Origin: a virus
Virus record (IMG/VR): IMGVR_UViG_3300036795_000241
Span: 11,684 to 75,683 of that record
Length of the DNA stretch: 64,000 nt
Reading direction: 5' to 3' (one strand)
Numbering within the stretch: position 1 is the first letter of the stretch; each line of letters starts with the position of its first letter. The position numbers and the translations under genes were made by a program. The notes under the pieces are model-generated. The model had not been told where the DNA came from and did not search any database. It saw only the letters and a program-made list of their open reading frames with translations. Shown piece by piece: positions 15,946-19,470 of this stretch.

Positions 15946-15974
15946 TTGACAGACTTGTCAGTTTCTGCTAGACT
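15946..15974 (+). promoter_or_regulatory. Primary-sigma promoter
   Basis: TTGACA-N17-TAGACT; TGACA-N4-TGTCA inverted repeat over the -35. Confidence 0.8.
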
Positions 15975-16005
15975 GGGTGCTGTGGGAGAGCACCAGGAGG
16001 CAGCA

Positions 16006-17769
16006 GTGGAGCGTCAGGTAACGATGCAGCTAAAAGTCCGGCGCGCGATTGACGACGAGGGGCTGGGCTTTGACGGTGACGGACCCAAGCCGGAGCCGAT
16101 CAACGAGATCACCGATTGGCTGATCGCGAAAGGTTACACCGTCGAGCAGTTCCAGCACGACAGCGGAGTTGCGAACCGGTCCGTACTATTTCACCTGTAC
16201 GACCTGCTGTGCCGAGTGCTGTAGAAGGGGAACGAAATGTACACGTGGGGCACGATGACGATAAGCGGAATTTACGGATCACCCGTGGTCGCGGATACCC
16301 TCGAAGAGGCGATCAAGAAGGCGGAAGCTATCGGCGAAGTGGTCCTGGACGCCACCGATGTGAACGGCGAGCACACCCTGATCGTGGCCGAGTAGGAGGC
16401 AGCTAATGTCGCAGCGTTTTGTGATATTCAAGAACGGCGTAGAGGTCATCGAGGACGGTGCTCCGGTTGCACTCGATCGTTACGAGTCCGCTCAGATGTA
16501 CGCCGGAATGGTCGATGGCGAAGTTGCGCAGCTCGTGTGGTCCCGCGAGGACGAGTCCTGATGCCGACGCCGACCGGACTGCCGAAAGTTGGCGAAGTGT
16601 GGGAGCGTACGTGGAGTCAACCTCCGGCATGGCATCCCGACACCGTTCGATTCGTCGTGCTGGAACGCGGAAGTGGCTCCTACTGGTCGCTACGCGTATA
16701 CGTAGCCAACGCCAACCCGGGTAACGAACGACAGCTATGGGTCGACTCGTCCTACTGGTTCTCGCGTGGTCAGCTCAAATACCTCGAACCCGCCGGTCCG
16801 GAGACGAAGAAGAAGCTAGGACTCGCGTAGGCGAACCGCCACACCCGGAGGCGATAGCGTATCGAATTCCGAGTTGACAAGTGTCGATGCGGGATGCTAT
16901 ACTACAGGCATGGAGCCAGCAGAGGTATTGCGTCAGCACGGTCTGGAAAGCCACCACAACGCGAAGGGAGAGCTAGTCCTAGCAAAGCAGGAAGCCAGTG
17001 ACCTAGCGGAGTACCTAGAGCTAATGTACCACGAGCTCTTTAAGCTAGGGCTGTGTCCGAACGGTTCACCGCTATTCCGCGAGGAGATCCGCCACACCCG
17101 GGGGCGTTAGCGTTTCGCGAGCTTGACAGTCACGGAGTTTTCTGCTATACTGGTGCTGTACGCCAGCGAAAAGTTACGACACAGCTAGGAGACCGCAATG
17201 CCGCGACAGGACGCCGAAGTGAAGTACTATCTCGAAAGCGATAGCGGACTATCCGACCAGGACAAGCTCGCAATCCCGTTCACCGTTCAGCGGCTGCAGG
17301 CGATCGAGCAGGCCCTCCGGGAGCAGGTCGTTACCGAGCGGTCGCAGGGCGACGAAGAAACCGCCTGGGCACTCGAGCGTGACGCCGACCTGATCGCGGA
17401 GAATCTCGAACGACACGGCTGGCTCTAGGTAATCCGCCACACCGCTGCGCCGGCCGCTACTCACCCGCTTGACAGGCTGGGCAGTCTCTGCTAGACTGGT
17501 GCTGTGGGCACAGGTGGAGCGACCAGGAGGGTCAGCAGCATGCAGGAGATCGTCGAATGCCCGTTCTGCGGAACGGAGTGCGTGATCGTTCAGGGTTACT
17601 GCAGCGAGTGCGACCACGAGATCACCGAGGAGGACGCAAAGTGAAGATGGCATACGTTTACGATGACGCCGACAACCTGCAGGAAGCGTTCCTCGTTACC
17701 CCGCAGCAGTTCGCCGACCTGGAGGCGGACCTGCCCGAGGGCTGGAGCGTTTCGGAGAAGGGTAAGTAG
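16006..17769 (+). CDS. Array of about eight very short early genes (ending 16224, 16395, 16561, 16830, 17110, 17428, 17644, 17769)
   Basis: RBS-led or leaderless ORFs of roughly 35-90 aa interleaved with four consensus promoters. Confidence 0.6.
16874..16903 (+). promoter_or_regulatory. Promoter (leaderless ATG 16910)
   Basis: TTGACA-N18-TATACT. Confidence 0.8.
17123..17151 (+). promoter_or_regulatory. Primary-sigma promoter
   Basis: TTGACA-N17-TATACT. Confidence 0.8.
17469..17497 (+). promoter_or_regulatory. Primary-sigma promoter
   Basis: TTGACA-N17-TAGACT. Confidence 0.8.
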
Positions 17770-17815
17770 CGATGAAGCAGGCAGCCACACCCGGAGGCGC
17801 AGCTACTCCGCGGAC

Positions 17816-17844
17816 TTGACAGTCGCGGGGATCTCTGCTAGACT
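17816..17844 (+). promoter_or_regulatory. Primary-sigma promoter
   Basis: TTGACA-N17-TAGACT. Confidence 0.8.
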
Positions 17845-18145: not shown

Positions 18146-18749
18146 ATGCCGCAGCAGAACGAAGAGCACGTTCCCGACAGTGCAGTTCTCGCCGAAATCC
18201 TCGAGGACATGCAGGCGCACGAGGAGGAGGAGGAGGACGATGTCGAAATCTCCTTCGCCGATGCACTGCGTTCGTACCTCGGCAACCTGAGTGACGATGC
18301 GCATGACGCCGGAACGGATGTCGAGTACATTCTCGGACTCGCCGGTCGCGTCAACGCGATCAAGCGTATCCACACGCAGCTAGGGATGCCGACCGAAGAC
18401 CCGCTCTACTTCCCGACCTTCGATGAGCTAATGGAGATGTGAGATGCCGATATTCACCTGGTCGCATCGGCCAGCCGCCGTTCCGGGCAGCGCACTGGAG
18501 GCGACGCTGTACATCGCCCGCGCGCAGTTCGCCGTTGAGCGCTTTATCGCCGGCGACCCGCACTTCACGTGGATCGCGGACTACGCCACCCGTATCTGCG
18601 ACGATTGCAGTGAGATTCAGACCGCCGCCGACGGGAATCACGTGGTCTACCGCGATCTGCTGATCGTCGGGTGCGAAGGCTACCGCCACCTTCCGCCGCA
18701 GTTCCTCGGGCTGGACGGTAGCAACTGGGAGGACTGGACGAAGTCGTAG
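18146..18749 (+). CDS. Two hypothetical genes (18146-18442 acidic; 18444-18749)
   Basis: RBS-led ORFs. Confidence 0.6.
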
Positions 18750-18816
18750 GTGACACCGAGGACGAAACGCCGAAAGGCGTCCACGGCTTAGGTGGCCGTG
18801 CCGACGAGTCCGTCAC
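18750..18816 (+). ncRNA. Type II hammerhead ribozyme (CCGACGA core variant)
   Basis: GGAC-GAAA-CGCC(GAAA)GGCG-UC-CACGGC(loop)GCCGUG-CCGACGA-GUCC; all three stems pair. Confidence 0.75.
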
Positions 18817-18840
18817 TTTCCGCGACAGGAGCAACACGCA

Positions 18841-19407
18841 ATGAGTACTACGCCCACACCGAAGAGGCACCACCGCATCCGCAACACCGTGATTGGCGGT
18901 ATCGTTATCGGCGGCTTCGCCATCGCGATGGCGAACACTGGCGGAAGCAGCCAGTCGCCGACCGCCAAGTCCTCCGTCGCGCCCGTTTCCGTGTGCAAGA
19001 CGCCGAGTCCCGTGAGCCCGGGAACGGCGTGTGCGCAGCCGAAGAAGGCGTCCGCCACACCCGCGGCGGTTACCGTTCCGACCACTCCGCCTCCGGCCCC
19101 GGCGCCGAAGTCCGACACCGTAACGTACCAGGTGACCGGCACCGCTCCGGCCGATGTCACGTACGGACCGTCCGGCTCGAACTCGACCGGTTCCGTCCCG
19201 ATGAGCACGACGGTGAACATCCCGGACAAGGCGCCGGCGTACTACGCGATCAGTGCGCAGCTGCAGGGCGACGGCGCCGTGAGCTGCGTGATCCGGGTCA
19301 ACGGAAAGGCGGTCTCGGTCGGGCAGGCGTCCGGCGGCTACAACATCGCCACCTGCGAGATCACCCAGGGCCTGTTCGGCGGCTGGGAGGACGCGAACGC
19401 TGGCTGA
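18841..19407 (+). CDS. MmpS-like membrane-anchored protein
   Basis: N-terminal TM helix, Pro/Thr linker, VTYQVTG...VSCVIRVNG...ATC. Confidence 0.7.
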   Translation: MSTTPTPKRHHRIRNTVIGGIVIGGFAIAMANTGGSSQSPTAKSSVAPVSVCKTPSPVSPGTACAQPKKASATPAAVTVPTTPPPAPAPKSDTVTYQVTGTAPADVTYGPSGSNSTGSVPMSTTVNIPDKAPAYYAISAQLQGDGAVSCVIRVNGKAVSVGQASGGYNIATCEITQGLFGGWEDANAG

Positions 19408-19441: not shown

Positions 19442-19470
19442 TTGACATCCGCGAAGAACTCTGCTAGACT
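19442..19470 (+). promoter_or_regulatory. Primary-sigma promoter
   Basis: TTGACA-N17-TAGACT. Confidence 0.8.

What the first reader, a model, noticed from the sequence alone, without database searches (positions are those of the whole stretch)
18750..18816. Variant hammerhead ribozyme in front of an MmpS-like gene
Seen: stem II GUGAC-(ACCGA bulge)-GGAC/GUCC-GUCAC; GAAA; stem III CGCC-GAAA-GGCG; cleavage triplet GUC (after 18781); stem I CACGGC/GCCGUG; core CCGACGA. Established: the consensus core is CUGANGA, so this has U4C. The bulge (ACC) could contact loop I (GGU) as the usual tertiary interaction. It starts immediately after a stop codon and ends 24 nt before the next start. Inference: self-processing of the polycistronic mRNA, possibly at a tuned-down rate.
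Basis: partly seen in the sequence, partly recalled or inferred. Interest (0 to 1): 0.7.

Follow-up and report, generated by a model that had tools for sequence, protein, structure and literature searches.

The report
Phage hammerhead ribozyme with C4 core
The 67-base spacer between two genes of a soil phage is a genuine type II hammerhead self-cleaving RNA. It carries a rare core change (U4 to C), and about 28 other phage and prophage hammerheads retrieved here have the same change, so it is a new member of a known ribozyme class, not a new kind of element.

Summary
Window 18750-18816 (+) folds as a three-way junction in the type II hammerhead order, and every conserved core base is present except U4, which is C18802.

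- **Chance:** only 9 loci in 691 shuffled windows reach one or fewer core mismatches, and none has stems as long.
- **Rfam:** its models give no hit, but the type II model also misses or under-scores canonical members of this subclass.
- **Own model:** a covariance model built from 110 U4 relatives in IMG/VR hits the window only here (54.3 bits, E 6e-14).
- **C4 elsewhere:** whole-collection pattern scans found 21 distinct well-formed C4 hammerheads in viral contigs and 7 in bacterial genomes. Changes to A4, G4, G5A, or any other base at A6 or A9 gave none with stems.

C4 is therefore a tolerated, probably functional variant. It is already documented in a viroid, where it slows cleavage in vitro.

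The likely role is splitting the operon mRNA between C18781 and C18782, just before a membrane-protein gene. Cleavage itself is untested.

The proposed ACC:GGU contact is no better than chance. The known UNmYN / R...A loop-loop motif fits instead. "MmpS-like" is only a lead.

The scan noted this same stretch once before, when it was read in another window (e1-6101482).

The parts
17816..17844 (+). Sigma-70-like promoter (TTGACA-17-TAGACT), the last one upstream of the ribozyme; likely start of the transcript that carries it
   Evidence: 10 of 12 matches; 6 such sites in the region against 1.4 expected; none between here and 19442
18444..18749 (+). Upstream ORF (101 aa, no family); its stop codon TAG is at 18747-18749, directly before the element
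18750..18754 (+). Outer extension of stem II, 5' strand GUGAC; pairs with 18812-18816
   Evidence: A helix of 5 bp or more between the flanks is seen in 9% of family members against 4.9% of controls, so support is weak
18755..18759 (+). Asymmetric bulge ACCGA. A18759 is the A found 5' of stem II in 94% of family members and is the equivalent of the 3' A of loop 2
   Evidence: PMC2632901
18760..18763 (+). Stem II strand GGAC (positions 11.4-11.1; C11.1 = 18763)
18764..18766 (+). Core G12 A13 A14
18767..18780 (+). Stem III hairpin: A15.1, CGCC, GAAA tetraloop, GGCG, U16.1
18781..18782 (+). Predicted scissile bond between C17 (18781) and C1.1 (18782), within the cleavage triplet GUC
   Evidence: Position follows from the hammerhead consensus; cleavage was not tested
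18782..18800 (+). Stem I hairpin: CACGGC / GCCGUG closing the heptaloop UUAGGUG, which matches the UN4YN loop 1 motif
   Evidence: PMC2632901
18801..18807 (+). Core CCGACGA = C3 C4 G5 A6 C7 G8 A9. C18802 replaces the consensus U4
   Evidence: The same variant occurs in 28 other natural hammerheads
18808..18811 (+). Stem II strand GUCC (positions 10.1-10.4; G10.1 = 18808)
18812..18816 (+). Outer extension of stem II, 3' strand GUCAC. G18812 is the purine opposite A18759
18827..18831 (+). Shine-Dalgarno AGGAG, 9 nt before the ATG of the next gene
18841..19407 (+). Downstream gene, 188 aa: N-terminal membrane helix, Pro/Ala-rich linker, C-terminal ~95-aa domain (phrog_8241). Possibly MmpS-like
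19442..19470 (+). Next sigma-70-like promoter, just after the downstream gene; marks the end of the operon

Best explanation
This is a type II hammerhead ribozyme of the phage intercistronic subclass: a 4-bp GGAC/GUCC stem II open at its end, a short loop I and no pseudoknot. It carries the rare core variant C4.

Inferred mechanism:
1. It is transcribed from the promoter at about 17816 as part of the mRNA HTH gene - orf98 - orf101 - ribozyme - orf188.
2. It folds into the three-way junction and cleaves itself between C18781 and C18782.
3. The upstream three-gene RNA ends in the stem III hairpin with a 2',3'-cyclic phosphate.
4. The downstream membrane-protein mRNA starts with a 5'-OH and the stem I hairpin, 45 nt before its ribosome-binding site.

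The two halves can then have separate stabilities and translation. C4 probably lowers the cleavage rate relative to U4 without abolishing it.

Shown here: the fold, the core, family membership, the gene context, and that C4 recurs in nature with intact stems. Inferred: cleavage itself, its rate, and its effect on the mRNA.
For: - **Sequence and fold:**
- **Uniqueness and chance:** it is the only descriptor hit in the window, against 0.013 per shuffled window for far weaker stems.
- **Family:** the pattern GGACGAAAC..GTC..CYGANGAGTCC retrieves more than 119 viral stretches, often 2-5 per contig between genes.
- **Own covariance model:** model R1 was built from 110 U4 relatives, excluding the window. 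It hits the window and the whole 75.7-kb genome only here, at 54.3 bits, E 6e-14.
- **Covariation:** stems covary in the family and among the C4 members.
- **C4 is specifically tolerated:**
  - Whole-collection scans give 34 C4 stretches. These contain 20 distinct well-formed hammerheads, plus one with a different stem II.
  - A4/G4, G5A, A6 to any other base and A9 to any other base give 0 well-formed hits.
  - Seven more C4 hammerheads lie in bacterial genomes.
  - Two phages carry two C4 copies each (L027, L129).
  - L122 and L202 differ by a compensatory pair in stem III.
- **Tertiary motif:** loop I UUAGGUG fits UN4YN, and there is an A 5' and a G 3' of stem II.
- **Context matches the family:** an upstream stop codon lies within 60 nt in 164 of 187 members, and the next start is a median 22 nt downstream.
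- **Transcription:** no promoter or terminator is predicted between 17844 and 19442.
- **Literature:** U4C is an active natural variant; phage hammerheads flank genes (PMC3088659); mRNA processing is the proposed role (PMC6765202).
Against: - No experimental or RNA-seq evidence of cleavage exists for this element or for any phage C4 hammerhead.
- U4 is otherwise strictly conserved, and U4C 'considerably decreases activity in vitro' (PMC3088659).
- No Rfam hammerhead model reports the element, even at E<=10.
- No orthologous locus was found, so conservation of C4 at this particular site cannot be judged.
- R1's training set was retrieved with a pattern copied from this element, so much of the 54 bits comes by construction.
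- The stem filter I used makes the 99% pairing figure circular.
- This is the phage's only hammerhead, whereas many relatives carry several.
Confidence: 0.72

Rival explanations
1. Dead relic. The element descends from a hammerhead, but the U4-to-C change has inactivated it. It persists only as a structured intercistronic spacer, for example as hairpins that protect RNA ends or pause ribosomes.
For: - U4 is a strictly conserved core base, and U4C strongly lowers in vitro activity (PMC3088659).
- Some predicted core variants tested in that paper were inactive.
- This phage has no second hammerhead that would show it depends on ribozyme processing.
- C4-bearing loci have slightly higher GC (median 0.605 against 0.577, p 0.014), so mutation pressure could contribute.
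Against: - If dead copies lingered with intact stems, other inactivating core changes should be seen too. Instead A4, G4, G5A and all changes at A6 and A9 give zero well-formed examples, against 21 for C4.
- C4 copies show compensatory stem changes, and two phages carry paired C4 copies.
- All other core bases, G10.1-C11.1, C15.2-G16.2 and the tertiary-motif positions are intact.
Confidence: 0.17
2. The three-way junction serves another purpose that does not need cleavage, such as a protein-binding site, a translational coupling or insulation element, or a transcription pause or terminator.
For: - The extended stem II includes the last codons and the stop codon of orf101, so ribosomes and the fold must interact.
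- There is a weak Rfam similarity to c4-2 RNA (12 bits, E 6.4).
Against: - There is no U-run after either hairpin and no terminator call here.
- The c4-2 score is far below its gathering threshold of 41 bits.
- All eleven other catalytic-core positions are kept, which such roles would not require.
Confidence: 0.05
3. Chance resemblance. Unrelated GC-rich hairpins happen to sit around hammerhead-like core letters.
For: - Relaxed descriptors do fire by chance: 0.013 per window at one mismatch and minimal stems.
- The scan covers very many windows.
Against: - No shuffled hit has stems this long.
- The element shares extra, non-core features with the family: A 5' of stem II, U-first loop I, the stem I sequence CACGGC/GCCGUG seen in L008, L058, L097 and L129, and the stop-codon/SD context.
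- The subclass model gives 54.3 bits.
Confidence: 0.02

Closest known systems
Type II hammerhead ribozymes of bacteria and prophages (Perreault et al. 2011, PMC3088659; Rfam RF02276)
   Same: - Circular permutation open at stem II.
- Core GAAA and C-N-GANGA, with A15.1-U16.1, GUC cleavage triplet and G10.1-C11.1.
- Located between phage genes on the coding strand.
   Different: - The Rfam archetype has a 2-bp stem II, a long loop I and a pseudoknot between loop I and the 3' tail.
- This element and its roughly 200 relatives retrieved here have a 4-bp GGAC/GUCC stem II, a loop I of mostly 3-5 nt as parsed (5-7 nt between Watson-Crick pairs), and no enriched pseudoknot.
- Position 4 is C, not U.
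Natural U4C hammerhead of a viroid (Ambros and Flores 1998, as cited in PMC3088659)
   Same: The same single core substitution in a natural hammerhead that stays biologically functional although it is slower in vitro.
   Different: - The viroid ribozyme processes a rolling-circle replication intermediate in plants; this one sits in a DNA phage operon.
- The original paper is not held in the library, so details rest on the citing paper.
A6C hammerhead of bacteriophage Bcep176 (PMC3088659; PMC7151607)
   Same: A phage intergenic hammerhead with a single departure in the CUGANGA core, weak with Mg2+ but still active.
   Different: - The position differs (A6, not U4).
- For A6C a preference for Mn2+ was shown; nothing is known about metal preference for C4.
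- In my scans, A6 variants with this stem II frame gave no well-formed example.
Loop-loop tertiary motif of natural hammerheads: UNmYN loop 1 / RNnA loop 2 (Dufour et al. 2009, PMC2632901)
   Same: - Loop I UUAGGUG is a heptaloop with a 5' U and a penultimate pyrimidine, like the CChMVd(-) heptaloop described there.
- A purine (G18812) and an A (A18759) flank the end of the 4-bp stem II.
   Different: Loop 2 is not a closed loop here. It is the open end or internal bulge of stem II (ACCGA opposite nothing), continued by a 5-bp outer helix.

Membership tests
Hammerhead ribozyme (type II) | Three helices around one junction, in the order stem II strand - GAAA - stem III hairpin - cleavage site - stem I hairpin - C-N-GANGA - stem II strand | tested here: met
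   MFE fold; own descriptor; fold kept in 161-nt context
Hammerhead ribozyme (type II) | Core G12 A13 A14, the A15.1-U16.1 pair, and H17 (not G) at the cleavage site | tested here: met
   GAA 18764-66, A18767-U18780, C18781
Hammerhead ribozyme (type II) | Core C3, G5, A6, G8, A9 | tested here: met
   C18801, G18803, A18804, G18806, A18807
Hammerhead ribozyme (type II) | U at core position 4 | tested here: not met
   C18802. This departure is documented in an accepted, active natural hammerhead (PMC3088659). It also recurs in 28 other well-formed natural hammerheads, so it does not exclude membership.
Hammerhead ribozyme (type II) | G10.1-C11.1 closing stem II and C15.2-G16.2 in stem III | tested here: met
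   G18808-C18763 and C18768-G18779; both are invariant in 110 relatives
Hammerhead ribozyme (type II) | [quoted passage not shown] | tested here: inconclusive
   The sequence fits the UN4YN and R...A motifs. No pseudoknot is enriched in the subclass, and the ACC:GGU pairing is at chance level. A 3D contact cannot be shown by sequence.
Hammerhead ribozyme (type II) | Score over the Rfam RF02276 gathering threshold (37 bits) | tested here: not met
   No hit at E<=10. In a control, canonical U4 members of the same subclass score 23-27 bits or are missed, so this test is insensitive here.
Hammerhead ribozyme (type II) | Match to a covariance model of the phage GGAC/GUCC subclass, built without this sequence and without C4 members | tested here: met
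   54.3 bits, E 6e-14; the only hit in the window and in the genome. Caveat: the training set was retrieved with a pattern taken from this element.
Hammerhead ribozyme (type II) | Site-specific self-cleavage giving 2',3'-cyclic phosphate and 5'-OH ends | not testable with these tools
   No RNA run holds this sequence
MmpS family (PF05423), for the downstream gene | Match to the Pfam model | tested here: not met
   No hit even at E<=10. Homologue P0004 (65% identity over the C-terminal half) has MmpS clusters as its nearest language-model neighbours, score 0.90. This is a lead only.

The most novel reading that the evidence does not exclude
C4 hammerheads are not just slower copies. They form a functionally distinct, repeatedly evolved subclass in phages of high-GC soil bacteria. 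On this reading, cleavage is conditional, for example dependent on pH (a protonated C4 replacing the N3-H of U4 in the uridine turn) or on Mn2+, as shown for the A6C phage variant. That would give the phage a regulated rather than constitutive split of its operon mRNA.
Probability: 0.2. Interest if true: 0.6.

Novelty: new member of a known kind. Interest (0 to 1): 0.35.

Why it matters
The element is an ordinary kind of thing, a phage intercistronic hammerhead, and the role of that kind is still unproven. Two points have some value.

1. **An Rfam blind spot.** An abundant phage subclass (4-bp GGAC/GUCC stem II, short loop I, no pseudoknot) is largely invisible to the Rfam type II model, so such ribozymes are under-annotated.

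2. **C4 stands out among core changes.**
   - Of the core changes tested here, U4-to-C is the only one that persists in nature with intact stems, at about 1 in 20 of this subclass.
   - It arose on many different stem backgrounds.
   - That makes C4 a natural, ready-made test case for how much catalytic rate a phage needs, or for conditional cleavage.

Tried and rejected
- **Rfam.** A cmscan of the window at gathering thresholds, of 1.6 kb and 101 nt at E<=10, and RF02276 over the whole genome gave no hammerhead hit. I rejected this as evidence against, because the same model misses canonical relatives.
- **Orthologous loci.**
  - megablast and tblastn against phage records found nothing.
  - The search for related loci with both flanking proteins found nothing in viral contigs.
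  - The search for related loci with orf101 in metagenome contigs gave one weak hit without a hammerhead.
  - tblastn of all window ORFs against the fetched loci found no relative of the neighbouring genes.
- **RNA evidence.** No RNA holder is listed; the only run is a soil-metagenome DNA run.
- **ACC:GGU bulge-loop pairing.** At chance level, so rejected.
- **Outer helix GUGAC/GUCAC.** Only weakly supported by the family: 9% against 4.9% in controls.
- **Terminator or promoter reading of the hairpins.** None predicted.
- **MmpS assignment.** Not supported by Pfam or by PDB sequence search. The ESM Atlas could not read the window's own protein.
- **Other negatives.** The Ambros and Flores 1998 paper is not held. 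The first shuffle run timed out. Host identification by primase similarity gave only distant hits below 30% identity, and there are no tRNAs.

Full report
**Where it is**

The window is bases 11684-75683 of a 75.7-kb IMG/VR virus record rated complete. It has about 60% GC and typical phage genes: an HTH regulator, a primase-helicase and an exonuclease. The only sequencing run that holds it is a soil metagenome. It has no close relative among deposited phages. The most numerous distant primase matches are actinophages.

**The observation**

- TAG stop at 18747-49
- GUGAC 18750-54, bulge ACCGA 18755-59, GGAC 18760-63
- GAA 18764-66
- A-CGCC-GAAA-GGCG-U 18767-80
- C 18781
- CACGGC-UUAGGUG-GCCGUG 18782-18800
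- CCGACGA 18801-07
- GUCC 18808-11, GUCAC 18812-16
- AGGAG at 18827-31 and ATG at 18841

The 67-mer's minimum-free-energy fold is this three-way junction (-27.2 kcal/mol, z -2.2). The junction is retained when 161 nt are folded; stem II then extends further into the last codons of the upstream ORF.

**Chance**

- I wrote a type II descriptor covering 12 core positions and requiring stems of at least 4 bp. It finds this as the only site in the window with up to two core mismatches.
- In 691 dinucleotide shuffles of the window, 9 loci (0.013 per window) had one or fewer mismatches. None had a stem I of 7 bp.
- Chance is therefore unlikely for this window. Across a scan of very many windows a few such coincidences could occur, so family evidence was needed.

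**Rfam**

No hammerhead model reports the element. I searched at gathering score, at E<=10 on 1.6 kb, at E<=10 on 101 nt, and with RF02276 over the whole genome.

As a control I scanned four viral loci that contain canonical perfect-core type II hammerheads of the same build. RF02276 scored two of them at 23-27 bits, below its 37-bit threshold, and missed the rest. Its consensus has a 2-bp stem II and a pseudoknotted 3' tail. Rfam's silence is therefore not evidence against.

**Family**

There are often 2-5 matches per contig, lying between genes.
- This matches the prophage arrangement described by Perreault et al. 2011 (PMC3088659).
- Scanning the fetched loci with my descriptor gave 211 distinct hammerheads. 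Of these, 41 have other stem II sequences and so were not selected by the pattern.
- I aligned 110 U4 members and built a covariance model from them, leaving out the window and all C4 copies. The model hits the window only at 18754-18817, with 54.3 bits and E 6e-14. That is also the only hit in the whole genome.
- Two caveats apply:
  - The retrieval pattern was copied from this element, so part of the score comes by construction.
  - The 99% pairing is partly circular, because I filtered for stems. The diversity of pair types is nevertheless real.

**Is C4 tolerated or a sign of decay?**

I ran whole-collection scans in the same frame and then filtered for stems:

| Core variant | Stretches hit | Well-formed hammerheads |
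|---|---|---|
| C4 | 34 | 20 distinct, plus 1 with stem II GAGC/GCUC in L027 |
| A4 or G4 | 4 | 0 |
| G5A | 0 | 0 |
| A6 to any other base | 5 | 0 |
| A9 to any other base | 9 | 0 |

- In bacterial and archaeal genomes, 99 stretches matched the C4 pattern and 7 of them are well formed. These include Saccharopolyspora and Actinophytocola.
- C4 copies occur on many different stem I backgrounds, each with a near U4 twin. For example, L143 and L042 have identical stem I.
- Two phages carry two C4 copies each, with different stems (L027, L129).
- L122 and L202 differ by a compensatory pair in stem III.
- Four copies with a GA...GAGA loop I are all C4.
- C4 loci have slightly higher GC.

Taken together, C4 is about 1 in 20 of this subclass and is the only core change tested that survives with intact stems. 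This argues that C4 ribozymes still work. The literature agrees: a natural viroid U4C hammerhead is much slower in vitro but sustains infectivity (PMC3088659). Another phage core variant, A6C, is weak with Mg2+ but active with Mn2+ (PMC7151607).

**Tertiary contact**

- The family shows no enrichment of complementarity between loop I and either flank: means are 2.71 against 2.62 (5' flank) and 2.60 against 2.57 (3' flank). Helices of 4 bp or more occur in 12-14% of permuted controls.
- Pseudoknots do appear, but only in the few members with a long loop I.
- The element instead fits the published loop-loop motif (PMC2632901). Loop I UUAGGUG is a UN4YN heptaloop. An A (18759) precedes stem II and a purine (18812) follows it.
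- In the family, A precedes stem II in 199 of 211 members, a purine follows it in 157 of 211, and 133 of the roughly 140 short loops start with U.
- The 5-bp outer helix has only weak family support: 9% against 4.9% in controls. It is shared by both copies in L058, whose C4+C7 copy also has a stem III nearly identical to this one's; its U4 copy has the stem I closest to this one's.

**Context and likely function**

- Sigma-70-like promoters lie at 17816 and 19442, with none in between, and no terminator is predicted near the element. The ribozyme therefore sits inside the transcript HTH - orf98 - orf101 - ribozyme - orf188.
- In the family, 164 of 187 members have an upstream ORF ending within 60 nt. 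In 108 of these the stop codon ends 1 nt inside to 3 nt before stem II. The next SD-led start lies a median 22 nt downstream. The corresponding gaps here are 10 and 29 nt.
- Cleavage would leave the upstream RNA ending in the stem III hairpin with a cyclic phosphate. The orf188 mRNA would begin with a 5'-OH and the stem I hairpin.
- From general knowledge, 5'-monophosphate-dependent RNases handle 5'-OH ends poorly. This would uncouple the stabilities of the two halves, which is the processing role suggested but not proven for bacterial hammerheads (PMC6765202).
- orf188 has an N-terminal membrane helix and a C-terminal domain common in Actinomycetota. It has no Pfam hit. A homologue's nearest language-model neighbours are MmpS clusters, so 'MmpS-like' is a lead, not a finding.

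**Verdict**

This is a real hammerhead of a known class, in a known kind of place, with a rare but previously documented core variant. Self-cleavage is likely (about 0.7) but untested. The added value lies in the evidence that C4 is a recurrent, selected variant, and in the fact that Rfam under-detects this phage subclass.

Noticed in passing
Loci L002-L148 (viral contigs), e.g. L002:7255-11607, L008:618-2636: In this hammerhead subclass the upstream ORF's stop codon abuts or overlaps stem II: its end lies -1 to +3 nt from GGAC in 108 of 164 cases. The 94%-conserved A before GGAC is usually the last base of UAA/UGA, or UAG supplies the first G. A terminating ribosome would therefore cover one strand of stem II, which suggests coupling between translation and ribozyme folding.
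   Followed up: partly
Family members such as L097:6099-6165, L008:1431-1498, L059:251-318, L011:2937-3003: The 3' tail right after stem II often reads AUCAG, or GUCAG when N7 is C. That is complementary to core C3-N7 (CUGAU / CUGAC). A 5-bp helix occurs in 28 of 211 members against 13.7 expected when tails are permuted. It could form an alternative hairpin that hides the catalytic core. The window element lacks it; its tail pairs with the 5' flank instead.
   Followed up: partly
L013, L058, L129 versus Rfam RF02276: Rfam's Hammerhead_II model scores canonical perfect-core members of this abundant phage subclass (4-bp GGAC/GUCC stem II, short loop I, no pseudoknot) at only 23-27 bits, or misses them entirely. 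Such ribozymes therefore go unannotated.
   Followed up: yes
L054, L066, L087, L134, L137, L142 (viral contigs): In one group of relatives the outer helix pairs a 5' CCUC(C) with the 3' GGAGG that is the Shine-Dalgarno sequence of the next gene. The ribosome-binding site would therefore be sequestered in the uncut or undissociated ribozyme and freed once the products separate.
   Followed up: no
window 15946-17844 and 19442-19470, + strand: Six near-consensus promoters (TTGACA, 17-18 nt, TAGACT/TATACT, each with an extended TG) lie within 3.5 kb, against 1.4 expected. They sit in front of very small ORFs, forming an unusually dense promoter array just upstream of the ribozyme operon.
   Followed up: partly
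L121:1740-1804, L140:4561-4611, L155:4768-4834, L191:5520-5572: A sublineage with stem I GCCGG/CCGGC (or GGCCG/CGGCC) and an 8-9-nt loop I of the type GA...GAGA is C4 in all four members found. Two are in Pseudonocardiaceae genomes (Saccharopolyspora, Actinophytocola), which suggests C4 is fixed in that lineage.
   Followed up: partly
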